A DNA stretch of 64,000 bases, taken from an uncultured Gammaproteobacteria bacterium. GTDB lineage: Bacteria; Patescibacteriota; Microgenomatia; UBA12405. How positions within the stretch are numbered: position 1 is the first letter of the stretch; each line of letters starts with the position of its first letter. Shown here piece by piece: positions 27,016 to 61,975 of this stretch. The notes beneath the pieces were generated by a model. It did no database searches, was not told the DNA's origin, and was given only the letters and a program-made list of their open reading frames with translations. The DNA is taken from contig CAYUZS010000002.1 of the NCBI GenBank assembly GCA_964448705.1, forward strand, positions 113,577-177,576. The letters are read 5' to 3'. The translations under genes were made by a program, and so were the position numbers.

Positions 27016-28667
27016 CTTTGCACCCGGTAGATAAGACTATCCTCATTTTCGAAAATCTTGGATAAATAAAGATTGGAAACATCCAAAAGATATCTTTCTT
27101 TTTGAACACCAGCTAAGTAGATATAATCGATCTGATTATTGACTAAAAAACCACGATCTTCATAGATATTTTTTTGAGAAAAAAATGATTCCGACTGCTG
27201 CCGTCTGGAAGCAACATCATAACCGGAATTTTGATTGTTCATTTCATCTTCTAAAAATACCGGTAAACGGCTATAAGCAGAAACATAGGCGGTGGTTTCA
27301 TAAGCATATAAAGGAACCGGTTCCGAGAGACTCTGTTTGAGATATTGATCGTATGGAACTGTGAGAACAGTACCTTTAGCCTGTTGGGAAAGATAATCCA
27401 GGGCGGAAAGCTCGCCTGTGGTTAAAACAGCCGGAGGAACACGACCAAGATAATTCGGCCAGGATCCTAATAACGACAAAAAATAGGTAGCAAAAATGAT
27501 AAAGGTTAAACCTTTATGTTTTTGTAAATAAGAAGCTAAAAAAAGATTACTGAGAAATAGGGCATAATACAAAAATTGAATAGTGTTCCAACTGGTACCT
27601 TTTTGAATAAAAAAGGTGGGAATTAAAGTGAGAACAAAAATATTTATTAAAAGAATCAATGAAAATTTGTCCCGAAAGTTAGTTTTTAAAAAGCCCAATA
27701 ATCTCCAACCAAAATTACCAATAATAAACAAGAAAAAAGTAGATAACATGAGGATTAAATATCTGGGACCAATTTTGCCGGAGGCTTCGAGAGTGTATCT
27801 CATATTAGCCAAATAAGGTATGAAAATTCTGTCGGGAGATTCGATCATGGAATTGATAAACCAAAAAGGTCGGAAAATCATTAGACCGGAAGATTGAGGG
27901 TTGTAGTTGAAAAACAAAATTAAAGCAACAAACAGAGAGAATATGGTTAATATGATATTTTTTAACGATTTGGAATGGAGAGCATATAATCCAAAAACAG
28001 AAAATCCAATTACAGCTGAATAAGCCTTGGTTATCGGTAAAAGTATCAATAAGAAAAATACGAAAAGTGACTGAAAAAGAGTTAAATTTTTATTAGAAAA
28101 ATTCCGATAAACAATAATTAACAAGACTAATAAAAAAATAAGTGAAAGAGTGTACGGCGGATTGATCTGATTACTCGGAGACTGCATAGCCCAAAAGATG
28201 GATTCACCGTCAAAATTACCCCGGGTAAGAAGGGTGTATATCCAACCAAAAGAATTGGCCAAGGCATTTAAAGAAAGAAACAAGATACCGCCTCTAAAGC
28301 CGGCAGTAAACATTTTTCCTAAGACAAAACTTAGCCACAAAAAGAGAAAAGAAGAAATAATAGGGAATATTTTAAAATACCAAACAGAAGCAGAAATACC
28401 GGATATTTTGACAAGGAAGCTGATTAAAATATCATAAAAAGGATGATAGTTTTTTAAAGTTTCACCGGCAAAGATAGGCATATCGATTTTTAGAGGATTG
28501 GAAATATTGTTTATTAAACTCAAATGCCAAACAGCATCGTGGCCGTTGGCACCCCAAAAACCGATTCCTATTTGACTTTGATGACCGCTTTTAAAGAGAG
28601 GAATAACCTGAATAATAGTTCCGATAATTAAAAATATGATGAGAATTATTTTTTGGGAACGAGCCAT
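27012..28667 (-). CDS. Large polytopic membrane protein, unknown family (possible polymerase or GT-C-like)
   Basis: About 14 hydrophobic segments. The first loop carries GFWGANGHDAVWHLSLIN. It sits between GT2 genes and the flippase. Confidence 0.45.
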   Translation of the reverse strand: MARSQKIILIIFLIIGTIIQVIPLFKSGHQSQIGIGFWGANGHDAVWHLSLINNISNPLKIDMPIFAGETLKNYHPFYDILISFLVKISGISASVWYFKIFPIISSFLFLWLSFVLGKMFTAGFRGGILFLSLNALANSFGWIYTLLTRGNFDGESIFWAMQSPSNQINPPYTLSLIFLLVLLIIVYRNFSNKNLTLFQSLFVFFLLILLPITKAYSAVIGFSVFGLYALHSKSLKNIILTIFSLFVALILFFNYNPQSSGLMIFRPFWFINSMIESPDRIFIPYLANMRYTLEASGKIGPRYLILMLSTFFLFIIGNFGWRLLGFLKTNFRDKFSLILLINIFVLTLIPTFFIQKGTSWNTIQFLYYALFLSNLFLASYLQKHKGLTFIIFATYFLSLLGSWPNYLGRVPPAVLTTGELSALDYLSQQAKGTVLTVPYDQYLKQSLSEPVPLYAYETTAYVSAYSRLPVFLEDEMNNQNSGYDVASRRQQSESFFSQKNIYEDRGFLVNNQIDYIYLAGVQKERYLLDVSNLYLSKIFENEDSLIYRVQR

Positions 28668-30100
28668 TTTGTTTGTTCAATAAACCAATTAATCTCACGT
28701 TTAGAAAAAATGAAATGATAAACAAAATAAACAGTGACTCCGATTAATATTTTAATTACGATGGACATTATTAAGTTTAAGTGAAGATAATTAACCAATA
28801 AGAGCAAGAAAACGATTGATAGGGAAGCGATCAGCGGATGAAAAATTGTTTTGATTATATTAATAGAAAAAAGCCGGTTGGCGATATACCAGACAACAAA
28901 AGAACTGGAACCGACAATTAAGGCGGCGACAGCTGTTCCCATATAACCATAACGATAACTTAAGAGCGGATAAAAGATCCAGGTGAGAACTGTCCACATA
29001 ATCATGAGTTTGGTGGTGATGCCGATTTTACCGATGGCATTAAAAGCGTTGGTTAGAGGGGTGGTGACAGCGGCAATGGCGGCGTTTATTGCATAAAAAT
29101 ACATCGGAACAATAGCCGGCAGCCATTTTCCATACTTCGGAATTAAGTTAATAAGATCCGGAGCAATCATAGCAATTCCGGCCAGAACCGGAAAAACAAA
29201 AAAAGAAATATAGTAGATACTCTTTTCAATGGAACGGCGGAGAAAATCTTTTTGTTCCTGAATTCTGGCAAAAGTAGGAAAAGTGACTCTCATAATGGCA
29301 TCCATAAAACTAAGCGGAATCCGGGGGCCTTTTTGAGCCCAAGAGAGAATACCAAAAGAATCACGGCCGATAATTCCGGCAACCAAAAGATTGGATAGTC
29401 GATCTTTGGCCATGGCAATAAAAGAATTTAATTGGAAAGGAATTCCAAAACGGAATAGTTTTTTAACCGAGACAAATGAAAAGGAAAAACCGATCGGCCA
29501 CGGACTTAAGCGATAAATAATTATTAGACCGACTAAACTGCGAATAAAAGTAGAGATGGCATAAGAATAAACACCGAAATGAAAAAATGCCAAAACAACA
29601 GCAACGACATAAAAGATTGTATTTTCGATGATATCAATGGTCGATAATATTTTAAAATTTAACTGTCTTTCCAAGAGAACAGAAGGAATGGTTTTGAGTG
29701 AAGCAGCCGCAAAAGAAAAACATAAGGAAATCAAAATCCACATTTCTTTAGAACCGTAACCTTTAGACAGACTGATACGCGGATAAATTAAATAGACAAC
29801 CAACAAAGCAATAAACACTAAAAACTGTTGAATTAAAAATGTAGTCTGTAATTCTTTTTTGGTGACAGATTCTTTTTGTTGAATCAGGGCAGATGCTAAA
29901 CCGACATCAGAAAAATAGCCTAAGATTCCAACAGATTCGGCGACGATAGCAAACAAACCAACCTCTCCGGTACCAAGGAGGATGGTGAGCAAAAAAAAGC
30001 CAATAGTGGAAATTGCCTGAATGCCGATATTTCTGAGAGACAAAAAGACAACACTGACGGTAGTTTTTTGTTTAATTTGTTCGACGTCGATGGATGTCAT
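28646..30100 (-). CDS. Wzx-like oligosaccharide/polysaccharide flippase (MOP superfamily)
   Basis: 484 aa with 12-14 TM. GTGEVGLFAIVAESVGILGYFSDVGLASALIQQKE resembles the conserved N-terminal region of polysaccharide-biosynthesis (Wzx) proteins. Confidence 0.6.
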   Translation of the reverse strand: MTSIDVEQIKQKTTVSVVFLSLRNIGIQAISTIGFFLLTILLGTGEVGLFAIVAESVGILGYFSDVGLASALIQQKESVTKKELQTTFLIQQFLVFIALLVVYLIYPRISLSKGYGSKEMWILISLCFSFAAASLKTIPSVLLERQLNFKILSTIDIIENTIFYVVAVVLAFFHFGVYSYAISTFIRSLVGLIIIYRLSPWPIGFSFSFVSVKKLFRFGIPFQLNSFIAMAKDRLSNLLVAGIIGRDSFGILSWAQKGPRIPLSFMDAIMRVTFPTFARIQEQKDFLRRSIEKSIYYISFFVFPVLAGIAMIAPDLINLIPKYGKWLPAIVPMYFYAINAAIAAVTTPLTNAFNAIGKIGITTKLMIMWTVLTWIFYPLLSYRYGYMGTAVAALIVGSSSFVVWYIANRLFSINIIKTIFHPLIASLSIVFLLLLVNYLHLNLIMSIVIKILIGVTVYFVYHFIFSKREINWFIEQTKWLVPKK

Positions 30101-34154: not shown

Positions 34155-35486
34155 TTATCTCCTAACAAGTGAGTAAATTCGGTGATGAAATACTACCTGA
34201 CTATCTTTTGGCAAGGTATCGTTGGTATAGAGAGTATAGAGATGACCATTGGTAAAAATTTTTGAAGGCCGACGATAAAAAGAAAGTAAATAGTCGAAAC
34301 CAAAATCCATACCTAAGCCAGTTTCGTAAGATAAATAAAAAGGTTGATCCTGAGTTTGGGTAATGAGATATCTGATGACAGTTTTTTTGTCGTTTAAAGT
34401 GACTTGGCCGGAAGATGACGAATATTGTTTAAACAAAACAAAGGCAGTTAGAAATATAGAAACAATAATGATTAAAATAGGATTTTTTAAAAACTTAACT
34501 AATATAAGAGCCAGATAGACGGGAATTAATGAAGTAACCAAAGCGTAATAATATTCAGAGATTGCTCCGTGATAAAAAGATAAAATAATCAGCGGAAGAA
34601 GCACCCAAACAAAGGATAACCAGCGATTTAACTTTGATGACATCAAAAAAGGAGAAACCAGAAGAATAAGTAAAAATAAACTTCTTTCGATGAGAGCGGG
34701 CATAATATTCAACAAAGATAAACTACGCCAAAAACTTCTTAGCCATAAAAACGGGGAATAAATTTGGCCGGAAGAATTAGTGCCGGAGATCAATTCTAAA
34801 ATTTTTTGAGTATTCAAAAAATTATGCCTTAAATCAAAAACAACCAGAGGCAAAAAAGGAATTATAAAAGCAACAATGCCCAAAAGAATTTCTTTGAGTG
34901 AAATTTTTTGCCTGCCGATGACAAAAGAAAAAATAATGATAGGAACCAAAGAAATTGGGACAAGATGAATGTTGGAAATTAATCCGGCGAAAAACATAGC
35001 CCAAATAAAACTAAATTTATGATTGATAGCCTGATAGCAAATATAAAAAGAGATAATGCTGATAAGCGGGGCATACATGACACTCCAACAAGTTTTACCC
35101 AAGATGATGGTTAAAAATAGTGATGCCAGAAAACCGGTTAAAGGATTAAAAATTTTGGAGATAAGTATGAAAGCAGTAACGGAAGTGATGACATTAATTA
35201 AAATTAAAGCGTATTGACCGGCGACAGGATCACCTTTGGTGAAAATATAAAAAGGCAAAAGATAATAATAGTGATACGGACCGACAAAAAAACTATTCTG
35301 ATTGCTGACCTGAGGACCGATTAAAAGAGGCTTATGACGGTCGATCATAGAAACAACTTTGGCAGCATCATCCGCCTGATCCCATTCGAAAGAATAGCTA
35401 GTTGAAACTCTTTGAAAAGAAAGCAAAAAGGAAAAGAGACCGATGATTAAAATTAAAACAAGTCCAAATGACTTATTGTTGGGCAT
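34155..35486 (-). CDS. GT-C-like polytopic membrane protein (tandem paralog a)
   Basis: EWDQADDAAKVVSMIDRHKPLLIGPQVSNQNSFFVGPYHYYYLLPFYIF aligns with the neighbour's LGDQGRDVVIVSDFLKKGDLFFIGPQTSIGNMYLGPFYYYLIVAP. Confidence 0.5.
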   Translation of the reverse strand: MPNNKSFGLVLILIIGLFSFLLSFQRVSTSYSFEWDQADDAAKVVSMIDRHKPLLIGPQVSNQNSFFVGPYHYYYLLPFYIFTKGDPVAGQYALILINVITSVTAFILISKIFNPLTGFLASLFLTIILGKTCWSVMYAPLISIISFYICYQAINHKFSFIWAMFFAGLISNIHLVPISLVPIIIFSFVIGRQKISLKEILLGIVAFIIPFLPLVVFDLRHNFLNTQKILELISGTNSSGQIYSPFLWLRSFWRSLSLLNIMPALIERSLFLLILLVSPFLMSSKLNRWLSFVWVLLPLIILSFYHGAISEYYYALVTSLIPVYLALILVKFLKNPILIIIVSIFLTAFVLFKQYSSSSGQVTLNDKKTVIRYLITQTQDQPFYLSYETGLGMDFGFDYLLSFYRRPSKIFTNGHLYTLYTNDTLPKDSQVVFHHRIYSLVRR

Positions 35487-36906
35487 TTAAATTATGAATT
35501 AACCGGAAAACCTTGATGCCATTAATTTCCCATTGGGAGTCGATTTTGGCCCAACCAAAGGCGGCAACATTCCATTCCGGGTTATTAATCGGATTGCAGT
35601 CAATTTGAAAAGGTTCGCAGACAACAAAAAGCTGGTCTGTAACCTGTGAGTCGAGAGTATATAAAGGTGATTGCCATTGATTAAAAAAATATCGATACGG
35701 CGGATCGTAGTTCATTTTTGCCAGCAGAGCAAAATTGAAAGGCTGTTGATTTGAAGCAGCTAAAATTGAGCGATCAATTTCGATGGTAGTAGACAACTGT
35801 TTGGGAGGAGACCAGCGAAAAGGATTTTCCAGGAAAGAAAAAACTGTCAACGAGATTAATAAAGGAATAGCCAGAAGACGAGGCAAACGGCTAAGAAGAA
35901 AGCCAATAAGCATAAAAACTACCGGGAAAAGAAAGGCAAAATAATGGTCGTAGATGTGCTGTTTGTAGAGTCCAAGCCCGACTAATCCGGATAGATACCA
36001 AAGTAAACACACAAGATAGGGATAAAAATGTTTTTTAGAACCTTGTCGAAAAAATAAATAAATAAGACCGACAACAAAGACGATCGATATTATGAGGCCG
36101 AAAGTAACATCTTTACCGGCTAAAAGCCGGGTGTTGACCTGATTAAACAATTCAGGAATAACAGGCAGTGATTTGTAAGCTTTCAAATTAACAGTGGTTT
36201 CTCTTTGAGTAAAAAAGGTAGTTAGAGCTTTAAAATTTTGGCCCTGATGTTTAAGGTCAAATAAAATTTGAGGGGTTAAGGAAAGAATAAAAACCAGAAC
36301 GGCCAATAGCGTTTCTTTAAGATGAAGCCGGGGTTTGTTTTTGAGCCAAATAATAAATGCCGGAGGCAATAAAAGCAGAGCTAAATAATGGGAATTTAAA
36401 CACATGATAAAAGCTAAAGAAGCATAAAGATATTTTTTCTGAGTAACAAAATAAATGAACATAAGTGAAAAAAGAGGCATAACATTGGGATTCCAGGAAA
36501 AATTCGAGTATTTAATAACTACCGGAGAAATAGAATATAGAAAAGCGGATAAATAGGCAGTTTTAGTGTTAAACCAGCGGCGGGAAATATAAAAAATTAA
36601 GGCCACGGTTAAGACGCCCAGGAGTGCCACAAAAACGGCCGGACCGATGGGATTAAAAAAAGCTAAAAGAAGCGAAGGGGCGACAATGAGGTAATAATAA
36701 AAAGGACCGAGATACATATTACCAATACTGGTTTGAGGACCGATAAAAAAGAGATCACCTTTTTTTAGAAAATCACTGACAATAACCACATCCCGTCCTT
36801 GGTCACCTAAAAATTCCATATAATCGGAAACTTTAAAAAGACGGAGAAAAGCTGCCAATACTAAAATTAAAACCAGCAACCAATATTTTGATAAAAATCT
36901 TTTCAT
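35473..36906 (-). CDS. GT-C-like polytopic membrane protein (tandem paralog b)
   Basis: See the tandem-paralog alignment for 34155-35486. It has 12 or more TM. The acidic loop DQGRD follows TM1. Confidence 0.5.
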   Translation of the reverse strand: MKRFLSKYWLLVLILVLAAFLRLFKVSDYMEFLGDQGRDVVIVSDFLKKGDLFFIGPQTSIGNMYLGPFYYYLIVAPSLLLAFFNPIGPAVFVALLGVLTVALIFYISRRWFNTKTAYLSAFLYSISPVVIKYSNFSWNPNVMPLFSLMFIYFVTQKKYLYASLAFIMCLNSHYLALLLLPPAFIIWLKNKPRLHLKETLLAVLVFILSLTPQILFDLKHQGQNFKALTTFFTQRETTVNLKAYKSLPVIPELFNQVNTRLLAGKDVTFGLIISIVFVVGLIYLFFRQGSKKHFYPYLVCLLWYLSGLVGLGLYKQHIYDHYFAFLFPVVFMLIGFLLSRLPRLLAIPLLISLTVFSFLENPFRWSPPKQLSTTIEIDRSILAASNQQPFNFALLAKMNYDPPYRYFFNQWQSPLYTLDSQVTDQLFVVCEPFQIDCNPINNPEWNVAAFGWAKIDSQWEINGIKVFRLIHNLNAQQ

Positions 36907-37628
36907 TTATGAAAGGTCATGTTTAACCAAAGACGGAAAAGATCAGCGAAACTTTTAATAATGACATTTATATGACGACCGGTGGCGGTGCCGGCATTTC
37001 GGGGATAATGGTGAACACCGACTTCGGTAATTTTGAAGCCGGCTTTTTTAGCTTTAATTAAGAATTCACTGCTGATAAATGCTCCCCTCTCCGATTCTAA
37101 CTTGGGAATGGTGTCGATGACCTTTTTATTTACTAACTTGAAGCCGCAATCGATATCCTTAACTTTTAAACCAAAAAGGACAAAAACGATAATTTCCCAT
37201 ATTTTGGAAGTTAAAATAACAACTTTAGGAACCTGACGTTGGAGATAATAGCCGATAACCAAATCGGCATAAGTGCGTTCCTGAGTATCGATAAATTTGT
37301 CTATTTCAGAAAAATCAAACTGACCATCTGAATCAGTAAAAGCGATCCATTGATATTGGCAGTTATAGAAACCGCTTTTAAAAGCAGCACCATATCCACG
37401 ATTGGGATGATGGGTGACAATTTTGGTTTGTCGGGGATAATCCTGATGAATTTCAGCTAAAATCTCGGCCGTTCTGTCTTTGGAACCGTCATCAATGAAT
37501 ATTATTTCCCATTTTTCGGCTGTTTTTTTAATAACCGGCAATGCCTTTTGAAAAGTGGTTTTAATGTTGGCTTCTTCGTTATAACAAGGGAAAAATACTG
37601 AAAGTTCTTTTAGTCGATGTTGACTCAT
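36903..37628 (-). CDS. GT2 polyprenyl-phosphate sugar synthase (DPM1/ArnC/GtrB-like)
   Basis: LSVFFPCYNEEANIKTTFQKALPVIKKTAEKWEIIFIDDGSKDRT. It is 241 aa and soluble. Confidence 0.7.
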   Translation of the reverse strand: MSQHRLKELSVFFPCYNEEANIKTTFQKALPVIKKTAEKWEIIFIDDGSKDRTAEILAEIHQDYPRQTKIVTHHPNRGYGAAFKSGFYNCQYQWIAFTDSDGQFDFSEIDKFIDTQERTYADLVIGYYLQRQVPKVVILTSKIWEIIVFVLFGLKVKDIDCGFKLVNKKVIDTIPKLESERGAFISSEFLIKAKKAGFKITEVGVHHYPRNAGTATGRHINVIIKSFADLFRLWLNMTFHK

Positions 37629-37668: not shown

Positions 37669-37696
37669 TTGACAGAACAGCTATTATTGATATAAT
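37669..37696 (+). promoter_or_regulatory. Near-consensus sigma70 promoter (TTGACA, 16-nt spacer, TATAAT) upstream of 37727 CDS
   Basis: TTGACA at 37669-37674, TATAAT at 37691-37696 and a GTG start at 37727. Confidence 0.5.
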
Positions 37697-37726
37697 ACCC
37701 TATAACGTTTAATTATTACAATATTA

Positions 37727-38359
37727 GTGAATAAAAATAAACTAATTTCTACAATTTGTTTGGGATTAAGCGCGTTATATTTGGCGAGCTTTTTGAATGC
37801 CAAAACTGCTTTTGCCCAGTACTATAGCCAAGGAGAAGGTAGTAAACAGATTATCGTTGACAAAAAAGTACGACCTATAAATGATGATACTTTTTACGAC
37901 AATATTGATCCCGGAAAAAAGACATTTATCGACGGAGAACAATTGGAATTTAAAATTACCGTTAAAAATACCGGTGAACAAATTTTGTACAACATCGAGG
38001 TAAAAGACATCTTACCCCAATATTTAACACTTTTATTTTTTCCCGGTGTTTACAACAAAACTGATAATAATTTGGTTACTAAAATTGATCAGCTTAACCC
38101 CGGAGAAAGCAAAGACTTTTATATCCGAGCCAATATAAGCTCCGTGCCGAAGTCAACAGTCGAAGGTAAAAAATGGCAGCAAATCAATAAAGCTACTGCG
38201 ACCACCGATTCGATCTCGGACAGTGATCAAAGCCAATATTTTATCAGCGGAAAATTGATACCCGCTACCGGTGATGAAGATTTAATGACAAAAACAATGG
38301 GGTTACTGTTGGTTTCAGTGACTGCTTTTGGATTACGTAAACTGGCCCGCGGCTACTAA
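37727..38359 (+). CDS. Secreted DUF11-like (conserved repeat domain) surface protein with C-terminal sortase sorting signal (IPATG)
   Basis: Signal peptide MNKNKLISTICLGLSALYLASFLNAKTAFA. FKITVKNTGEQILYNIEVKDILPQYL resembles a DUF11 repeat. The C-terminus is ...LIPATGDEDLMTKTMGLLLVSVTAFGLRKLARGY, giving an (L/I)PxTG motif, a hydrophobic stretch and a basic tail. Confidence 0.65.
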   Translation: MNKNKLISTICLGLSALYLASFLNAKTAFAQYYSQGEGSKQIIVDKKVRPINDDTFYDNIDPGKKTFIDGEQLEFKITVKNTGEQILYNIEVKDILPQYLTLLFFPGVYNKTDNNLVTKIDQLNPGESKDFYIRANISSVPKSTVEGKKWQQINKATATTDSISDSDQSQYFISGKLIPATGDEDLMTKTMGLLLVSVTAFGLRKLARGY

Positions 38360-38365
38360 AATCGA

Positions 38366-39556
38366 CTATTTGGTAATTAAACGAAGACTCATAATTAATC
38401 CGGGGCTGTAATGTTGACTGAATTCCTGATCGGCACCATACCAAGGATCGTGAATCTTGTAGTTACCATTAGAACCACTGATAATGACGATAAAATGCAT
38501 CCCGGAAACCGTCCCAGACATTTTTATCTGAGCAATAACATAACGACCATTTTTTAGCTCACTATCGACGGTAGCGGCACTATAAGCCACCTGTTTATAA
38601 CTATAACCATCGGGAGGAATCGGCGGCAAAGCGTAAGCGGTGTTAAAGCGAAAATAACCAGGGGTAGCAGCATACACTGAAGGAGTGATGTCGTGACCGA
38701 GTTTTTTATAGACCATAGAGATACTGGTTAAATAACAGCCGACAGCACCGACAGTATCACTTGAATTACCAATAGTCTGACGACACCAACGAGGATCACG
38801 CTGTGAATAAAAATTACCATCGCTGCCGCCGCCCTGAGCCGAATCAAGACAAGTAGAACCACCGGCTGAACTGGCGAAGCTTTTTAGAGCATTTAATTGA
38901 GAAACCGCTTCGGCCAACAACTGCTCGTATTTTGTCTCGTCATTTTTAGTGGCAGTGAGCAGGGCGTTTTTGGAAGCCTTCTGCTGATCCAAACTTTTTT
39001 GTTGAGAAGCCAGTTGAGTTTCTAAAACCTGAAGTTCTTGCTGTTTTCGCGTTTTTTCGTCTTTTTGGGTATCGTAATTGGTGCGGGTTGTTTCCAGTTG
39101 GACTAAAGTATTTTGACTGTTTTCCTGAATAGTCGCCATGTATTTATATTTCTCCAGGATATTGTTGAAGTTGGTGGAAGTGAATATAGAAAAAGAAGGA
39201 TAACGTTTGGACATTTTGTAGTTTTCCGTTACCTGGCGAATATAGACCGAGGACAATTGGTTTAATGAAACATCTAAATCGCCTATTTTTACAGTCAAAT
39301 CAGCAATCTCTGCTTTCAATGATTTAATGCTGTTTTGAGTCTGAGAAATTTTAAGGGTAGTAAGCTCGATTTGAGAATTTAGAATACTGATTTGATTGGC
39401 AAGAGTGTTTTTGGCTTTGCCAAGCTCGGACAGCTTTTTGGTGTACTCGGTAATTCTTTGATTGATTTCTTCGGCTTCGTCGCCACGAATAGTAGAAGGA
39501 GGGACAAATACAAAAAGAAAGATTAGTGAGAGCAGAGCAAAAAACAAATTTTTCAT
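38366..39556 (-). CDS. Secreted coiled-coil cell-wall hydrolase with C-terminal C39-like Cys/His peptidase domain (PcsB/CwlO/EnvC-like FtsEX partner)
   Basis: N-terminal signal/TM followed by about 200 aa of heptad-rich coiled coil. The C-terminal domain has YSQRDPRW...GAVGCYLTSISMV (Gln plus catalytic Cys) and GMHFIVIISG (His). It lies immediately downstream of ftsE-ftsX on the same strand. Confidence 0.6.
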   Translation of the reverse strand: MKNLFFALLSLIFLFVFVPPSTIRGDEAEEINQRITEYTKKLSELGKAKNTLANQISILNSQIELTTLKISQTQNSIKSLKAEIADLTVKIGDLDVSLNQLSSVYIRQVTENYKMSKRYPSFSIFTSTNFNNILEKYKYMATIQENSQNTLVQLETTRTNYDTQKDEKTRKQQELQVLETQLASQQKSLDQQKASKNALLTATKNDETKYEQLLAEAVSQLNALKSFASSAGGSTCLDSAQGGGSDGNFYSQRDPRWCRQTIGNSSDTVGAVGCYLTSISMVYKKLGHDITPSVYAATPGYFRFNTAYALPPIPPDGYSYKQVAYSAATVDSELKNGRYVIAQIKMSGTVSGMHFIVIISGSNGNYKIHDPWYGADQEFSQHYSPGLIMSLRLITK

Positions 39557-39562
39557 TAGAAC

Positions 39563-40435
39563 TTAAAATTTAATGTATCTTTTGACACCCAACCAACTGG
39601 CTAAATAGCCAATAATGCTGCCTAAAAACAAGCAAGAAACAAGAATAAGAGCGTAATGCTGTAGGTTTGTGGAGATAAAAATAATGGGATTAAAGAAAGA
39701 ATTGATTTGATTACGAAAATAAAGAGTAAGGAGGAAAACAATTAAACATCCCAAGAAGCTGCCGACTAGGCCATAAATAATGCCTTCAATCAAAAATGGT
39801 TTTTTAACATAGAAACTGGAAGCGCCAAGAAGACGGCTAATATTGATTTCATCTTTTCGGTTGGTAATTTTCATACCAATAATTACGGAAATGATTAAAA
39901 AGGTGACTGCGGTAGTAATAGAAACTGCAATTATTCCTGTTTTACGGATAAAATCCGTCCAACTGAGAAGCGAATTGATGATATCTTTTTGATAAATTAT
40001 TTCGTCAACCTGGTCTTTTTTAGTAGAAAAGTTTTGGGCAATTTCTTCGAGTATTTTTGGATCCGAGACAGAAACTTCGAAAGAGGCAGGAAGGATGCTG
40101 GCAGTGACCATTTCGGTTAACAGAGGATTGTCTTTATTCTCTTCCTGATAAATTGCCAAGGCTTTTTCTTTGGAAATAAATTTTATTTCCCGAATATTTT
40201 GATAATTGGATAATTCTTTTTGGATATTTTCGACTGTAGAACGATCCAGACCATCTTTAAGAAAGATGGTAATTTCCGGTTTAGTTTCAAAATAATTTAA
40301 GACAGTCGACATTCCCCCGCTGACGATCAGAAAAAAACTGAGAATCATGAAACTGATGGTCATAACAATAGCCGCGATTAAACTTTGGAAGGGAGAACGG
40401 CGAATATGGTGCCAGGCGTTTTTGAAAGGGGTCAT
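39563..40435 (-). CDS. ftsX: Cell division permease FtsX
   Basis: 290 aa with an N-terminal TM, a large extracytoplasmic loop and three C-terminal TM. It overlaps ftsE by 4 nt. Confidence 0.75.
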   Translation of the reverse strand: MTPFKNAWHHIRRSPFQSLIAAIVMTISFMILSFFLIVSGGMSTVLNYFETKPEITIFLKDGLDRSTVENIQKELSNYQNIREIKFISKEKALAIYQEENKDNPLLTEMVTASILPASFEVSVSDPKILEEIAQNFSTKKDQVDEIIYQKDIINSLLSWTDFIRKTGIIAVSITTAVTFLIISVIIGMKITNRKDEINISRLLGASSFYVKKPFLIEGIIYGLVGSFLGCLIVFLLTLYFRNQINSFFNPIIFISTNLQHYALILVSCLFLGSIIGYLASWLGVKRYIKF

Positions 40436-41124
40436 TTCTTTTTTGAATGAGTATGGGGTTTTTTAGTATCGGAAACAATTTCTCCGTTTCTAAGGCCGAT
40501 GATTCGTTTATCCAAGGCATTTACAATTTCCATGTTGTGACTGGTCATAATAATAGTAGTGTCGTATTGTTCGTTAATATCTTTAAGGAGTTTTATTAAA
40601 TTCCAGGAATTTTCTACATCCAGATTGCCGGTGGGTTCATCGGCAAGGATTATTTTTGGTTCAATTACCAAGGCTCGAGCCAAAGAGGCACGCTGCATCT
40701 CGCCTCCGGAAAGTTGAGAAGGAAAAAGATGACGGCGACTACCTAAATTAACCTGTTTAATCACATTTTCTATTTTTTCAGGGATAATCGCCTGTGGAAC
40801 ATTGTTAATATCGAGGGCCAGAGCAATGTTTTCTTCGATAGTTTTATCCGGAATCAATAAATAATCCTGAAAAATAACACCAATTTGACGGCGGACCTGA
40901 TTAACAGAATTCCGATCCAGAGTAGAAAGATCATGATCACCGATAATTATTTTTCCACTTGAAGGGCGGATTTGATTGAGGATTAATTTGAGCAGCGTTG
41001 ATTTTCCGGCTCCGGAAGGACCGACTAAAAATACGAATTCGCCTGAATCTATGGAGAAATCTATGTCCTTTACAGCATTGATGACACCAAATGATTTGGT
41101 GACGTGGTCAAAAATGACTTTCAT
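40432..41124 (-). CDS. ftsE: Cell division ATP-binding protein FtsE (ABC ATPase)
   Basis: Walker [13 protein letters not shown] signature [15 protein letters not shown] and Walker [12 protein letters not shown]. Confidence 0.85.
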
Positions 41125-41668: not shown

Positions 41669-42700
41669 TTAAAGAGATTCTTTGAGGGAATCGCTGATAA
41701 ATTTCTGGAAGCTACGGTAGTTTTTGTCTTGAGGAATAAACACCCACTGTTTGTTGATAAAAGTCTTAGGATGATAAAGGAGATCTGATTTTGGATTTTC
41801 TCCGGTAGTAAGGTTTATTTTGTTAAAGGAGAGATTTTGGAGATGAGTTAAACCCTGAAGGCCTAAACTGAACAAATCCCTGTCGGTGAGATTGGTCTGC
41901 AATTGCTGATGGAAAAAATTATAGAGATTAACCAAATTGTCAGGACGGTAATAAAAATCAGGAGATTTAATTTTGGCCAACAAGGCATCCAGTAATAATT
42001 GTTGACGTTGAATTCGGCCAATGTCAGTTCCCCCCAGAGAGGCAGTTTCGGCACTTTTGCGGGAACGGACAAAAGGAGCAATGTTTTGACTGTTTAGATG
42101 ATTGATTCCGGAGGGAAATTCAACAGTAATGTACACAGGAATAGAAGCAGAAGGGCTGGCAACGTACGCCGGATTAGGATATTGATCGTCACGAAAACCG
42201 TTCTCTAAATTAACATCGACACCGCCGACTAAAGAAACTAAATCGATCAGATTTTGGGTGGTAATAACTAAAGTACGATCAACCGGTTGATCTAACAATT
42301 GCGAAAACTGTTGTTGAATATATTCAAACTGATCAGAACGACCGATAGACTGCGGGTAAATTTGATTTATTTTGGCATTTAGAGGATAACTCCATAAATC
42401 ACGAGGCAGGGAAATCAGATTAATCCGATAATTCGGAGTAAGATTGCTAAAAATTATCGTGTCAGTGGTTTCAGATTTTTCCAAACTATCATTACGGGGA
42501 TCGAGACCAAGAATCATAAAATTTAAAGGCGGAGAAATAGACGGCTGTTTTTTGGCCGATATTATCTCTTTAGGAAAGTATAAAAATTCAGTATTGGTAG
42601 CCAGGGAAATTGTTTTTAAGCAGACAAAAACCACAATTACTGCCAATATAATGATGGATATTAAGGTGTAAACAAAAGAAGTAAATATTTTATGTGGCAT
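41669..42700 (-). CDS. LytR-CpsA-Psr (LCP) family glycopolymer phosphotransferase
   Basis: N-terminal TM, then FMILGLDPRNDSLEKSETTDTIIFSNL...LISLPRDLW, which matches the LCP domain pattern (G.D.R...R.DTI...SIPRD). Confidence 0.65.
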   Translation of the reverse strand: MPHKIFTSFVYTLISIIILAVIVVFVCLKTISLATNTEFLYFPKEIISAKKQPSISPPLNFMILGLDPRNDSLEKSETTDTIIFSNLTPNYRINLISLPRDLWSYPLNAKINQIYPQSIGRSDQFEYIQQQFSQLLDQPVDRTLVITTQNLIDLVSLVGGVDVNLENGFRDDQYPNPAYVASPSASIPVYITVEFPSGINHLNSQNIAPFVRSRKSAETASLGGTDIGRIQRQQLLLDALLAKIKSPDFYYRPDNLVNLYNFFHQQLQTNLTDRDLFSLGLQGLTHLQNLSFNKINLTTGENPKSDLLYHPKTFINKQWVFIPQDKNYRSFQKFISDSLKESL

Positions 42701-45208: not shown

Positions 45209-45958
45209 TTATTTTAGCAAAACCAAAATATTTTTGGCACCAGAGTCGATATCCTCTTTACGGCCACTATCAGGAAAATCATGGATACTATCCATTAATA
45301 ATTCATAAGAATAGTGAAAATAAGCACCATGCCTGGTGCCGACATCGTGAACAATAAATTGTCGGCGGGAGTCGTCATAACCTAAAATTACTAAATTGTG
45401 GTACCACGGTCCGCCGGAATTGAAATGTTTATTTTCCTGATAGAGAATTTTACCGTTGGCAGGAACAATGATCGGAATATCCTTGGATATATAATCTTTT
45501 ATTATTTCTATGGTTGGTTCGTTGATTATTTCCGATTTATAGTTAAAAACTTCATCGGCGACAACGGCCATTTGAGAGAGATTAATGTCGTGGCTAAACC
45601 CAAGTTCGTTTTCGGTCTGAAATAAAATTTGATAATCGTTTAAAAACTGAGATATTGAGGGTGAAGATTGTTTATAATAGTAGTTGACAGTTAATAAAGC
45701 TGCTTCTTCGCAAGCGTCCTGCCAGGGTTGATCCCAATTTTTTTCCGGAGACTGAGGGACAAAAGTAGTTTTGATTAAGTGAGAAGAGGGCAAACCATTT
45801 GAGTCCAAAGTTGTTGGTTTGGGAAAGATGGCGGTTGGTAGATCAACTAAGTCCACTGAAGCGGGCAAAAAACGGGAAGCAAAATAGTTTTTCCGGAGGA
45901 AAATAGTGAAAAAAACAATTAAGACAACAACAATGACGACTATTAGAAATTTCTTCAC
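45209..45958 (-). CDS. Membrane-anchored C39-like (papain-fold) peptidase domain protein
   Basis: N-terminal TM. QSPEKNWDQPWQDACEEAALLTV (Gln ... Cys-x-x-AAL) and later HNLVILGYDD...VHDVG resemble Peptidase_C39-like domains. The pattern parallels the C-terminal domain of the 38366-39556 protein. Confidence 0.45.
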   Translation of the reverse strand: MKKFLIVVIVVVLIVFFTIFLRKNYFASRFLPASVDLVDLPTAIFPKPTTLDSNGLPSSHLIKTTFVPQSPEKNWDQPWQDACEEAALLTVNYYYKQSSPSISQFLNDYQILFQTENELGFSHDINLSQMAVVADEVFNYKSEIINEPTIEIIKDYISKDIPIIVPANGKILYQENKHFNSGGPWYHNLVILGYDDSRRQFIVHDVGTRHGAYFHYSYELLMDSIHDFPDSGRKEDIDSGAKNILVLLK

Positions 45959-58444: not shown

Positions 58445-59251
58445 ATGAAACGAATATTTCGGATAATAAATCCCAACTTGTTTCATAGGTTTATATATTA
58501 CGGTAACGAATTTGATTTGTCAATTTCAATAAAATTGATAGAATTATTTATGATATTTGGCGATTTCTTCCGAATAACCCCGAAAACCAGGAAGATAAAA
58601 GTGAGGAACAAACAAGGTGTTTTGTACAGTAATCCGGGAATGTTTAAGAAAACAATTTTTTATGTCGGTAATTGGCTTTTAGTGGCAGCCGGATGCATGC
58701 TGGTTTATCTTTATTACCCCTTAGGTAAGGCGATAGTTATGTATGAATGGTCACAAAATTCCCAAAAGGAAAATGTGGCCACGAATATACCATTGCCTAC
58801 CCCAACGCCGCAGCCGGGATTTAATATCACAATCCCTAAAATTTTAGCCAACTCAGAAATTGTGGCCGATGTCTCCCCTTTTAAAAGAGAAGAATATTTG
58901 AAAGTTTTAGAGAACGATGTAGTGGCACAAGCTACGGGGTCGGATAAACCGGGTTTAGGACCGGGAAAAATGACTTATATTTTTGCTCACTCGACAACTC
59001 AAAGTCTGGATATGCTGCGAAAAAACTCAGTATTTTACTTATTGGGTGAATTAAAAAATGACGACATTATATTTATTAACAAAGACGGGGTGGTATATAC
59101 ATATATAGTATATAAGCAAGAAGTGGTTAAGGCGACACAAACCGAATACCTAAAATACAGTGAACCGGATAAAGAAGTTTTGATTTTACAGACCTGTTGG
59201 CCGATAGGAACTAACTGGAAGAGATTGTTAGTATTTGCCAAAAGGGTTTAA
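58445..59251 (+). CDS. Sortase family transpeptidase
   Basis: N-terminal TM anchor. Catalytic His in MTYIFAHST, the TLxTC motif (VLILQTCWP) and a downstream conserved Arg (NWKRLLVFA). Confidence 0.75.
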   Translation: MKRIFRIINPNLFHRFIYYGNEFDLSISIKLIELFMIFGDFFRITPKTRKIKVRNKQGVLYSNPGMFKKTIFYVGNWLLVAAGCMLVYLYYPLGKAIVMYEWSQNSQKENVATNIPLPTPTPQPGFNITIPKILANSEIVADVSPFKREEYLKVLENDVVAQATGSDKPGLGPGKMTYIFAHSTTQSLDMLRKNSVFYLLGELKNDDIIFINKDGVVYTYIVYKQEVVKATQTEYLKYSEPDKEVLILQTCWPIGTNWKRLLVFAKRV

Positions 59252-61699: not shown

Positions 61700-61975
61700 A
61701 TGAAAAGAAGTGAAGATCTGCCAAATAAAATTAAAGATTTGATCGATGACGAAGTGACACAATTGGCTTTTAATAATCTTGGAGTTAGAGAAATCACAAA
61801 CGAAGGAGCTATTGAATTGCCTTCAGTCTTGTCAAAAATGAATGATTCAACAATTAACTATCAGAACATATCTAAAATAGCTAATCGATTTGGGGAAAAA
61901 TTGATACCACCAAAAAATGGCATACACCTGTTTCATGTTTTGCAATCACTGGCTACAAGAGAATGGAAACATTAA
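61700..61975 (+). CDS. Hypothetical small protein
   Basis: A 91-aa ORF with a TATAAT-like element about 15 nt upstream. There is no homology signal. Confidence 0.3.
   Translation: MKRSEDLPNKIKDLIDDEVTQLAFNNLGVREITNEGAIELPSVLSKMNDSTINYQNISKIANRFGEKLIPPKNGIHLFHVLQSLATREWKH

What the first reader, a model, noticed from the sequence alone, without database searches (positions are those of the whole stretch)
37727..38359. DUF11-like surface protein with an IPATG sorting signal, driven by a near-consensus promoter, plus a sortase 20 kb away (58445-59251)
The 210-aa protein has a signal peptide, a DUF11-type repeat and the C-terminal tripartite signal LIPATG-DEDLMTKT-MGLLLVSVTAFGL-RKLARGY. The only sortase in the window (His in IFAHST, TLxTC as LILQTCWP, a conserved Arg) lies at 58445-59251, next to tyrS and greA. 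Together these indicate covalent anchoring of a surface protein to the wall. The Ile variant of LPxTG and the acidic spacer are atypical. The substrate gene directly abuts the glycosylation super-locus, so it is a candidate glycosylation target. Its promoter (TTGACA-16-TATAAT) is the strongest in the window, consistent with an abundant surface protein.
Basis: partly seen in the sequence, partly recalled or inferred. Interest (0 to 1): 0.55.

Follow-up and report, generated by a model that had tools for sequence, protein, structure and literature searches.

The report
Sortase-anchored surface protein of a Microgenomates bacterium
A small, probably very abundant surface protein of an uncultivated ultra-small (CPR/Microgenomates) bacterium carries a divergent LPXTG-type signal, and the lineage's single conserved sortase most likely uses it to fasten the protein covalently to the cell wall; this is a familiar mechanism in an unfamiliar lineage, with an undescribed substrate family.

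Summary
ORF 37727-38359 encodes a 210-aa protein with a signal peptide, one DUF11 (now "CLIPPER") Ig-like domain, IPATG, a hydrophobic stretch and the tail RKLARGY. ORF 58445-59251 (true start probably 58550) is a sortase with invariant His/Cys/Arg.

New here:
- The protein belongs to a family of at least 120 proteins of about 200 aa, named in Shapirobacteria, Woesebacteria and Microgenomates MAGs.
- P-x-T-G is essentially invariant, but the preceding residue varies (V>I>M>L>T).
- The distance from Gly to the C-terminus is 28 aa in 62/68 sequences, and the tail R-[KR]-x-x-R-G-Y-stop is nearly invariant.
- This signal is found on no other protein type among 1.84 billion representatives.
- K46, E/D74 and N154 covary, as expected for a CLIPPER intramolecular isopeptide bond.
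- A perfect TTGACA-N16-TATAAT promoter is unique in the window and conserved in 9/10 related loci.
- The sortase meets none of the five NCBIfam class models that matched it (C, D, E, F, GN; class A and B models did not match at all); class C is the nearest.

Best reading: an abundant, isopeptide-stabilised coat protein anchored to the wall by sortase. Polymerisation into a pilus is the main rival. Glycosylation is untested. This is a modestly interesting new variant of a known system.

The parts
37669..37696 (+). Sigma-70-type promoter TTGACA-16 nt-(TG)-TATAAT, a 12/12 match
   Evidence: It is the only perfect match in the 64-kb window (0.05 expected). A perfect TTGACA-N16-18-TATAAT is conserved at the same place in 9 of 10 related loci and occurs nowhere else in them.
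37697..37726 (+). Conserved A/U-rich 5' leader of about 24-30 nt (ACCCTATAACGTTTAATTATTA...), without a Shine-Dalgarno sequence
   Evidence: The motif TAATRNCCTRTAAY occurs once in each of 10 related loci, always upstream of this gene. The genome largely lacks SD sequences (6/53 genes) and many genes look leaderless.
37727..38359 (+). CDS of the 210-aa surface-protein precursor (GTG start; stop codon included)
   Evidence: 20 homologues at 39-71% identity; the wider family numbers at least 120 proteins of about 195-215 aa.
37727..37816 (+). Sec signal peptide (residues 1-30; predicted cleavage AFA|QYYSQ)
   Evidence: The sequence follows the AXA rule, and A30/Q31/Y32/Y33 are 74-85% conserved. 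AF2 predicts a helix at 3-23. No dedicated signal-peptide predictor was available.
37850..38248 (+). CLIPPER (DUF11) Ig-like domain, residues 42-174
   Evidence: PF01345 scores 42.9 bits. The AF2 model has pLDDT 86.7 with nine beta-strands. Foldseek matches CLIPPER 9ifr (TMt 0.66) and the shaft pilin 8wxd.
37862..37864 (+). K46, predicted isopeptide lysine (first strand)
   Evidence: K46 and N154 are both present in 60 of 68 family members and both absent in the other 8. This matches K715-N806 of 9IFR.
37946..37948 (+). E74, predicted catalytic acid of the isopeptide triad (second strand)
   Evidence: E or D is present in 56 of the 60 K46/N154-containing sequences, but in only 2 of the 8 sequences lacking them.
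38186..38188 (+). N154, predicted isopeptide asparagine (penultimate strand)
38258..38272 (+). Sorting motif I-P-A-T-G (residues 178-182); predicted sortase cleavage between T181 and G182
   Evidence: P179 68/68, T181 67/68 and G182 68/68. Position 178 is V28/I18/M9/L5/T4.
38273..38356 (+). Retention segment: DEDLMTKT, hydrophobic MGLLLVSVTAFGL, and tail RKLARGY
   Evidence: The segment is exactly 28 residues in 62/68 sequences. R204 67/68, K/R205 68/68, R208 68/68, G209 68/68, Y210 66/68. Hydropathy peaks at 2.14 over residues 191-203. AF2 predicts a helix at 183-207.
58550..59251 (+). Sortase CDS (233 aa from M36; the open frame begins at 58445)
   Evidence: PF04203 scores 60.1 bits and TIGR01076 43.8 bits. 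There are 821 homologues; those that carry a source name are from Shapirobacteria, Woesebacteria or the Microgenomates group. All 19 aligned homologues start at the position of M36.
58988..58990 (+). Catalytic His (IFAHST)
   Evidence: Invariant in 30 sequences.
59195..59197 (+). Catalytic Cys (LQTCWP)
   Evidence: Invariant.
59222..59224 (+). Catalytic Arg (WKRLL)
   Evidence: Invariant.

Best explanation
The gene encodes the precursor of an abundant, covalently wall-anchored coat protein of a Microgenomates (Shapirobacteria-like, CPR) bacterium.

Proposed mechanism:
1. A conserved consensus promoter and an A/U-rich leader drive high expression.
2. The Sec system exports the precursor, and signal peptidase cuts after A30.
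3. The single CLIPPER (CnaA-like Ig) domain folds and locks itself with an autocatalytic K46-N154 isopeptide bond, with E74 as the acid.
4. The C-terminal hydrophobic segment and the RKLARGY tail hold the protein in the membrane.
5. The genome's housekeeping-type membrane sortase (58550-59251; His182/Cys251/Arg260) cleaves between T181 and G182 of I-P-A-T-G and transfers the Thr carboxyl to a peptidoglycan precursor.

Only about 7 residues separate the last strand from the cleavage site, so the 17-kDa domain would sit directly on the wall.

Shown here: domain identities, conservation of the motif, spacing and tail, covariation of the triad, promoter conservation, the sortase catalytic residues, and co-occurrence of the two genes.

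Inferred: cleavage, the acceptor, bond formation, abundance, and the biological role (coat or adhesin).
For: Domains and catalytic residues.

Family-wide sorting signal: P179 68/68, T181 67/68 and G182 68/68; the segment after Gly is exactly 28 residues in 62/68; the tail R-[KR]-x-x-R-G-Y-stop is nearly invariant even though overall identity falls to 20-40%.

A paralogous subfamily with the same tail carries canonical LPxTG. Two of its three tested members pass the NCBIfam LPXTG_anchor model TIGR01167 (P0210 18.3 bits, P0233 16.1 bits, cut-off 15.9; P0247 13.5 bits does not), and NCBI names P0210 and P0233 LPXTG anchor proteins.

Sortase and substrate lie on the same contig in 7 assemblies (186,675; 362,260; 41,892; 389,988; 232,129; 24,183; 735,491 nt). 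Positions were read in two of them.

The sortase family is reported as near-ubiquitous in Microgenomates (PMC6744442).

Isopeptide triad: K46 and N154 are present together in 60 sequences and absent together in 8 (at least 3 clades). E/D74 is present in 56/60 of the former and 2/8 of the latter. The strand positions match CLIPPER 9IFR, K715/D748/N806.

Promoter: unique in the window and conserved in 9/10 loci.
Against: - No experiment exists, and the organism is uncultivated.
- The two genes are never adjacent; there is no sortase within 10 kb of the substrate in 11 loci. The pairing is therefore by co-occurrence only.
- The window protein's signal does not hit TIGR01167 even at E<=10.
- The sortase is far below every class-specific cut-off. 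Its nearest sequence and structure neighbours are pilus-polymerising class C enzymes, which fits the rival.
- The hydrophobic core is short (13 residues).
- A whole genome could not be scanned, so other sortases or substrates may exist.
- The nature of the wall acceptor in CPR bacteria is unknown.
Confidence: 0.6

Rival explanations
1. The protein is a minimal pilin. The sortase acts as a polymerase, joining T181 of one subunit to a lysine side chain of the next. This would build a covalent pilus of single Ig domains, anchored to the wall at the end. The paralogous type-2 protein (LPxTG, no isopeptide) could act as a base or tip subunit.
For: - The nearest sortases by sequence and by fold are pilus-specific class C enzymes: NF033745 is the best class model; PDB 8t28, 2xwg and 8gmx are the best sequence hits; Foldseek ranks 1-11 are almost all class C.
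- The substrate model matches the S. sanguinis shaft pilin PilA, 8wxd, at rank 4.
- Isopeptide-locked Ig domains and very high expression are typical of major pilins.
- Related genomes have two paralogous substrates.
- The window protein has V-Y-N-K111, faintly like the V-Y-P-K pilin motif.
Against: - Apart from K46, which covaries with N154 as an intramolecular partner, no lysine is conserved enough to be an obligatory nucleophile. K47 is present in 74%, K129 in 79% and K111 in 49% of 68 sequences.
- There is no YPKN motif and no E-box in the sequence.
- The sortase has no lid-like conserved DP[WFY] segment; the linker between the TM helix and the first strand is variable and has low pLDDT.
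- The sortase has no C-terminal TM helix; it ends 8 residues after the catalytic Arg.
- The class C model scores 56.9 against a cut-off of 160. Class E and D structures match almost as well.
- Only one sortase is seen, whereas classical pili use a polymerase plus a housekeeping enzyme (own knowledge).
Confidence: 0.2
2. The protein is an ordinary type I membrane protein. The C-terminal helix is a permanent anchor, PxTG is a structural turn before it, and the sortase 20 kb away is unrelated.
For: - The sortase gene is never adjacent.
- AF2 predicts a continuous helix at 183-207.
- TIGR01167 does not recognise the signal.
Against: - P, T and G are essentially invariant in 68 sequences while the surrounding positions vary. 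The same motif becomes canonical LPxTG in the paralogous subfamily.
- The hydrophobic core is only 13 residues and is followed by a basic tail, which is the classical sorting-signal layout.
- A sortase co-occurs on every long contig examined.
Confidence: 0.07
3. A glycoprotein route that would add to the best explanation rather than exclude it. Before anchoring, the protein is glycosylated outside the membrane. The enzymes would be the neighbouring GT2 + GT-C (PMT_2) modules and/or the nearby LCP enzyme, as with Actinomyces oris GspA (own knowledge). The protein would then be the main acceptor of the 37-kb glycosylation locus.
For: - The gene abuts a divergently transcribed GT2 (36903-37628) and PMT_2 (35473-36906). 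An LCP gene lies 3.3 kb away (41669-42700). This arrangement is conserved in L001-L003.
- Close relatives share an exposed loop P141-[TS]-[TS]-[TS].
Against: - There is no operon link, since the strands are opposite.
- The whole 60-kb region is collinear among these genomes, so adjacency carries little weight.
- The Ser/Thr loop is not conserved across the wider family.
- The mature protein is only 15% Ser+Thr.
- Type-2 paralogues sit elsewhere.
- GT-C arrays may instead build wall glycopolymers.
Confidence: 0.15

Closest known systems
Canonical LPXTG surface proteins anchored by housekeeping sortase (e.g. S. aureus protein A / SrtA; TIGR01167 signal)
   Same: N-terminal Sec signal. [quoted passage not shown] A membrane sortase with the His-Cys-Arg triad and an N-terminal anchor.
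   Different: - The residue before Pro is V/I/M rather than Leu.
- TIGR01167 does not match the window protein.
- The segment after Gly has a fixed length (28 aa) and an almost invariant R-K-x-A-R-G-Y-COOH end, whereas canonical tails are variable (own knowledge).
- The signal is confined to one ~200-aa protein family instead of being shared by many passengers.
- There is no wall-spanning linker.
- The sortase meets no class cut-off.
Sortase-assembled Gram-positive pili (class C sortases with pilins such as SpaA or S. sanguinis PilA, PDB 8wxd, 8gr6)
   Same: An isopeptide-locked Ig-like subunit with a PxTG signal. The sortase's nearest sequence and structure neighbours are class C enzymes.
   Different: - One domain instead of two to four.
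- No YPKN lysine or E-box.
- The sortase has no lid and no C-terminal helix.
- The genes are not clustered in a pilus island.
CLIPPER (DUF11, PF01345) domains of fibrillar adhesins, PDB 9IFR (bioRxiv 10.1101/2025.04.25.650565)
   Same: The Pfam match is above the cut-off. The fold is CnaA-like. A Lys/acid/Asn triad sits on the first, second and penultimate strands.
   Different: The domain here is a single free-standing copy that makes up the whole mature protein. In the described adhesins it forms tandem stalk repeats in very long proteins. It has an extra 20-residue insert between strands A and B, and Glu rather than Asp as the acid.
Dedicated sortase/single-target pairs (e.g. class GN 'marine' sortase TIGR03784 with its own target; own knowledge)
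   Same: A sortase that seems to serve one small, lineage-specific substrate family carrying its own signal variant.
   Different: In those systems the two genes are adjacent, and the motif and enzyme are different (TIGR03784 scores only 22.3 bits against a cut-off of 158 here). In this window they are 20 kb apart.
Pam pili of CPR bacteria (bioRxiv 10.64898/2026.03.03.709456)
   Same: Abundant Ig-fold surface proteins found only in CPR lineages, including Microgenomatia.
   Different: Pam pilins are 39-55 kDa two-domain proteins. They assemble by donor-strand exchange using operon-encoded chaperone-like factors, and sortase is not involved in their assembly.

Membership tests
Sortase superfamily (PF04203 / TIGR01076) | Domain HMM above the curated cut-off | tested here: met
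   PF04203 scores 60.1 bits against 26.6. TIGR01076 scores 43.8 against 39.35.
Sortase superfamily (PF04203 / TIGR01076) | Catalytic His, Cys (TLxTC-like) and Arg | tested here: met
   H182, C251 (LQTCWP) and R260 are invariant in 20 and in 30 aligned homologues.
Sortase superfamily (PF04203 / TIGR01076) | Transpeptidase activity on a PxTG substrate | not testable with these tools
   This needs an enzyme assay.
Sortase classes A-F and GN (NCBIfam class models) | Class-specific HMM above the cut-off | tested here: not met
   Class C 56.9/160, D 35.8/165, SrtD 36/140, E 21.5/160, F 16.2/166, GN 22.3/158. The class A and B models did not match at E<=0.1.
Class C (pilus) sortase | N-terminal lid with a conserved DP[WFY] motif, and a C-terminal membrane helix | tested here: not met
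   The linker between the TM helix and strand 1 is variable and disordered. The protein ends 8 residues after the catalytic Arg.
LPXTG cell-wall anchor domain (TIGR01167) | HMM above the cut-off | tested here: not met
   There is no hit for the window protein, P0003 or P0012 at E<=10. Type-2 paralogues P0210 (18.3) and P0233 (16.1) pass the cut-off of 15.9; P0247 (13.5) does not.
LPXTG cell-wall anchor domain (TIGR01167) | Tripartite layout: motif, hydrophobic stretch, basic tail at the extreme C-terminus | tested here: met
   IPATG, then 8 polar residues, 13 hydrophobic residues and RKLARGY-stop.
LPXTG cell-wall anchor domain (TIGR01167) | Leu at the first motif position | tested here: not met
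   The window protein has Ile. In the family the counts are V28, I18, M9, L5, T4, N2.
CLIPPER / DUF11 (PF01345) | Domain HMM above the cut-off and a CnaA-like Ig fold | tested here: met
   42.9 bits against 24.6. AF2 pLDDT is 86.7. Foldseek hit to 9ifr has E 1.9e-5 and TMt 0.66.
CLIPPER / DUF11 (PF01345) | Lys-Asn isopeptide pair with a catalytic Asp/Glu | tested here: met
   The residues are present and covary: 60 sequences have both K46 and N154, 8 have neither, and the acid is present in 56/60. The bond itself cannot be tested with these tools.
Sortase-dependent pilin | Conserved pilin-motif lysine (YPKN) and E-box | tested here: not met
   No free lysine exceeds 79% conservation. K111 in V-Y-N-K is 49% conserved. 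There is no E-box-like sequence.

The most novel reading that the evidence does not exclude
Microgenomates may run a dedicated sortase system unlike classes A-F. A lineage-specific sortase, with a conserved cytoplasmic N-terminal segment (DFFRVTPKKRKVK...G...NP), would recognise the invariant cytoplasmic tail R-K-x-A-R-G-Y-COOH of just one or two ~200-aa CLIPPER proteins. It would then build from them a covalent protein layer on the wall, or a pilus of single Ig domains. That layer could be the surface layer or fibres seen on ultra-small cells and used for host contact.
Probability: 0.15. Interest if true: 0.65.

Novelty: new variant of a known kind. Interest (0 to 1): 0.4.

Why it matters
Sortase has been reported as near-ubiquitous in Microgenomates (PMC6744442). 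I found no paper that says what it anchors.

This locus supplies a concrete candidate. It is a small family found, so far, only in this lineage, apparently highly expressed, and probably isopeptide-locked, with its own sorting-signal variant.

- It gives a defined surface antigen or handle for uncultivated CPR cells, usable for antibodies, metaproteomic markers and cryo-ET labelling.
- It gives a testable sortase/motif pair ([VIM]PxTG plus an RGY tail) that might broaden sortase-ligation chemistry.
- It gives a minimal natural CLIPPER domain for studying isopeptide formation.

It does not change the understanding of sortase biology.

Tried and rejected
1. Exact-sequence look-up of the window protein (P0001) found no contig on record, so the source genome could not be walked. 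The test 'scan the whole genome for other PxTG C-termini' was replaced by scans of the window and of 14 related loci, about 270 kb in all. Those loci were selected around the genes of interest, so they are not an unbiased sample.

2. A profile of the family against PDB sequences gave nothing significant; 9IFR was not found by sequence. The link to CLIPPER rests on Pfam and Foldseek.

3. The genome-contig scan returned only 7 loci because the back-translated patterns were strict. It therefore does not measure distribution.

4. Rfam (no family reached its gathering score) and tRNA scans of the window were empty. No known RNA family accounts for the conserved leader.

5. The idea that the post-'-10' motif CCYRTAA is specific to this gene was rejected. 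Similar AT-CCY discriminators follow the -10 boxes of secA and of a small ORF at 61700.

6. P0179, a 1680-aa hit to the signal profile, is a low-complexity repeat protein and not a substrate.

7. A relationship to the CPR Pam pilins was considered and rejected on size, domain number and assembly mode.

Full report
**1. The observation**

ORF 37727-38359 (+ strand, GTG start, 210 aa) is present as described.
- Pfam DUF11 (PF01345, renamed CLIPPER in current Pfam) scores 42.9 bits against a cut-off of 24.6, over residues 66-169. TIGR01451 scores 29.1 against 24.
- The N-terminus has two lysines, a hydrophobic helix and A28-F29-A30|Q31.
- The C-terminus is L-IPATG-DEDLMTKT-MGLLLVSVTAFGL-RKLARGY-stop. 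Hydropathy peaks over residues 191-203.

ORF 58445-59251 has a Pfam Sortase domain (60.1 bits against 26.6) and passes the generic TIGR01076 model (43.8 against 39.35).
- In alignments of 20 and of 30 homologues, H182 (IFAHST), C251 (LQTCWP) and R260 are invariant.
- Every aligned homologue starts at the position of M36, so the true start is probably 58550.

Nothing else in the window resembles a sortase. No other ORF ends in a PxTG-type signal.

**2. Organism and family**

The window has 37% G+C. Homologues that carry names come from Candidatus Shapirobacteria, Woesebacteria and 'Microgenomates group' MAGs. The window is therefore from a Microgenomates (CPR/Patescibacteria) genome.
- The sortase has 821 detectable homologues. 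A sortase family was already reported as 'near ubiquitous in Microgenomates' (PMC6744442).
- The substrate first returned 20 homologues of 184-224 aa.
- A 41-column profile of the C-terminal signal was searched, without a word index, against 1.84 billion representative proteins. It returned 59 hits. Apart from fragments and one spurious low-complexity protein, all are 188-228 aa proteins of the same kind.
- A profile of 63 family members returned 120 proteins, all full-length ones of about 195-230 aa.

The signal therefore belongs to one small protein family. It is not a tag shared by diverse passengers.

**3. The sorting signal**

Counts are from 68 aligned members.
- P179 is present in 68/68, T181 in 67/68 and G182 in 68/68.
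- The preceding position varies: V28, I18, M9, L5, T4, N2.
- The stretch from Gly to the stop codon is exactly 28 residues in 62/68.
- The tail is nearly invariant: R204 (67), K/R205 (68), R208 (68), G209 (68), Y210 (66).

This holds even though overall identity to the window protein falls to about 20-40%. A plain membrane anchor would not be expected to show such conservation of a turn motif, a spacing and a C-terminal end.

A divergent subfamily ('type 2') begins its mature part with ADDE[IV]RNLxVDLKAKGFSQ. It has the same tail but canonical LPxTG. Two of its three tested members pass the NCBIfam LPXTG_anchor model (P0210 18.3 bits, P0233 16.1 bits, cut-off 15.9; P0247 reaches only 13.5). 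NCBI names P0210 and P0233 'LPXTG cell wall anchor domain-containing protein'.

The window protein and its close relatives do not hit that model at all. One Shapirobacteria assembly (JAUYJS01) carries both a type-1 gene (L009) and a type-2 gene (L014). So there are at least two substrates per genome in some members. No type-2 gene lies in this window.

**4. The domain**

The preprint that renamed DUF11 shows that CLIPPER is a CnaA-like fold. Its intramolecular isopeptide bond joins Lys-715 to Asn-806 and is presumably catalysed by Asp-748 (PDB 9IFR; bioRxiv 10.1101/2025.04.25.650565).
- The AlphaFold model of the window protein is confident (mean pLDDT 86.7; above 90 across the domain). It has nine strands between residues 42 and 174.
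- Foldseek finds 9ifr (E 1.9e-5, TMt 0.66), a streptococcal shaft pilin and many generic Ig domains.
- In the family alignment K46 (first strand) and N154 (penultimate strand) are both present in 60 sequences and both absent in the other 8. Those 8 come from at least three clades.
- An acid at position 74 (second strand) is present in 56 of the 60, but in only 2 of the 8.

This is the pattern expected for an autocatalytic Lys-Asn bond. The bond itself is inferred. I could not measure distances because model coordinates are not exposed.

The mature anchored product (Q31-T181) would be 151 residues, 17.1 kDa, pI 5.2. Only about seven residues separate the last strand from the cleavage site. The domain would therefore sit directly on the wall rather than on a stalk.

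**5. Expression signals**

TTGACA-16 nt-TATAAT with a TG extension at 37669-37696 is the only perfect match in 64 kb (0.05 expected).
- The same perfect pattern lies upstream of the orthologue in 9 of 10 related loci and nowhere else in about 190 kb of those loci. The tenth locus has a near match.
- The type-2 gene in L014 has a perfect match too.
- Downstream of the -10 box is a conserved leader (TAATRNCCTRTAAY, then A/U-rich). It occurs once per locus, always at this position.
- The genome almost lacks Shine-Dalgarno sequences (6 of 53 genes). Many first genes have a -10 box 6-7 nt before the start codon, so they look leaderless.
- The AT-CCY discriminator is not gene-specific; secA and the ORF at 61700 have it. 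The roughly 24-30 nt leader is unusual for this genome.

High expression is a reasonable inference, but it has not been measured.

**6. Linkage of the two genes**

The substrate lies in a conserved position. On one side is a divergently transcribed GT2/PMT_2 cluster. On the other is a cell-division cluster: a coiled-coil protein with a C39-like peptidase domain, ftsX, ftsE, an LCP gene and a class I peptide chain release factor gene (Pfam PCRF + RF-1). This is seen in JGI and ENA contigs whose proteins are 48-65% identical.

In the same two contigs the sortase lies 18-20 kb away beside greA, as it does here. No sortase lies within 10 kb of the substrate in any of 11 loci.

The pairing is therefore by co-occurrence in collinear genomes, not by operon structure.

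**7. Sortase class**

None of the class-specific NCBIfam models comes near its cut-off. The best is class C, at 56.9 against 160.
- The best PDB sequence matches are class C enzymes (8t28, E 1.8e-6).
- The AlphaFold model (pLDDT 81.5) matches class C structures first, but class E and D almost equally well.
- The enzyme has an N-terminal membrane helix. A conserved basic segment of about 30 residues precedes it.
- The linker to the first strand is variable and disordered, with no lid motif. There is no C-terminal helix.

It is a sortase, but not a demonstrable member of any described class.

**8. Interpretation**

The best-supported mechanism is classical sortase anchoring of an abundant, isopeptide-locked single-domain coat protein (confidence about 0.6).

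The main rival is polymerisation into a minimal pilus (0.2).
- For it: the class C-like affinities of the enzyme and the pilin-like nature of the substrate.
- Against it: no universally conserved free lysine (K47 74%, K129 79%, K111 49%), no pilin motif or E-box, no lid, and no pilus gene cluster.

A permanent TM anchor is unlikely (0.07).

Glycosylation before anchoring is possible but has only positional support, plus a Pro-Thr/Ser-rich loop confined to close relatives. I rate it 0.15, as an add-on to the best explanation.

**9. Novelty**

Sortases in CPR genomes are known and are annotated routinely. Type-2 relatives are already auto-named LPXTG proteins. I found no paper describing the substrates of the Microgenomates sortase.

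The following appear to be undescribed:
- the non-Leu motif that escapes TIGR01167;
- the fixed spacing and invariant RGY end;
- the restriction of the signal to one family;
- the free-standing CLIPPER domain with a covarying triad;
- the conserved consensus promoter.

This makes the locus a new variant of a known kind, of moderate interest.

Noticed in passing
window 38366-39556 (-), with ftsX 39563-40435 and ftsE 40432-41124: The gene immediately downstream of the substrate, on the opposite strand, encodes a secreted protein. It has an EnvC-like coiled coil (NF008644, 36 bits) and a C-terminal Peptidase_C39_2-like cysteine-peptidase domain, and it lies directly after ftsEX. It looks like a PcsB/EnvC-type FtsEX-controlled wall hydrolase with an unusual catalytic domain. 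A second C39_2 protein lies at 45209-45958.
   Followed up: partly
window 480-37628: About 30 genes form an array dominated by paralogous ~500-aa GT-C glycosyltransferases (PMT_2/PMT). Small GT2 enzymes and a Wzx-like flippase (28646-30100) are interspersed. This is an exceptionally large extracytoplasmic glycosylation locus for a small genome.
   Followed up: partly
window-wide; e.g. secA start 54461 (-), uvrC 61660 (-), aminoacyl-tRNA synthetase gene 59315 (+), GT2 37628 (-): Only 6 of 53 genes have any Shine-Dalgarno-like tetramer. Many first genes have a TATAAT-like box 6-7 nt before the start codon, which suggests widespread leaderless mRNAs. The -10 boxes are often followed by AT-CCY.
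   Followed up: partly
window 58445-58549: The sortase ORF extends 35 codons upstream of the start used by all 19 aligned homologues. The first ATG is probably not the real start.
   Followed up: yes
window 58550-58650 (sortase residues 36-70 of the ORF): The predicted cytoplasmic N-terminus of the sortase is strongly conserved (DFFRVTPKKRKVK, then G and NP; several invariant positions). This is unusual for sortases. Together with the invariant cytoplasmic RGY tail of the substrate, it suggests recognition on the cytoplasmic side. No test was possible.
   Followed up: no
L013 8001-8600; L014 8001-8630: Type-2 paralogues (canonical LPxTG, same RGY tail, no K46/N154) sit next to an NTP_transferase gene in other Microgenomates genomes. 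They have their own near-consensus promoters. L014 is from the same assembly as the type-1 locus L009.
   Followed up: partly
window 61700-61975 (+): A 91-aa ORF with no Pfam match is preceded by TATAATATCCTATAA, the same -10/discriminator arrangement as the substrate gene.
   Followed up: no
L008 (CAYSVP010000022.1): A contig labelled 'uncultured Gammaproteobacteria bacterium' carries the Microgenomates-type substrate gene with its promoter and leader. It is probably a mis-binned contig.
   Followed up: no
window 37817-37849 (residues 31-41): The predicted mature N-terminus Q-Y-Y-S-Q is 74-85% conserved in type-1 proteins, yet it is modelled as disordered (pLDDT below 50 for residues 30-36). 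Its function is unknown. Type-2 proteins lack it.
   Followed up: no
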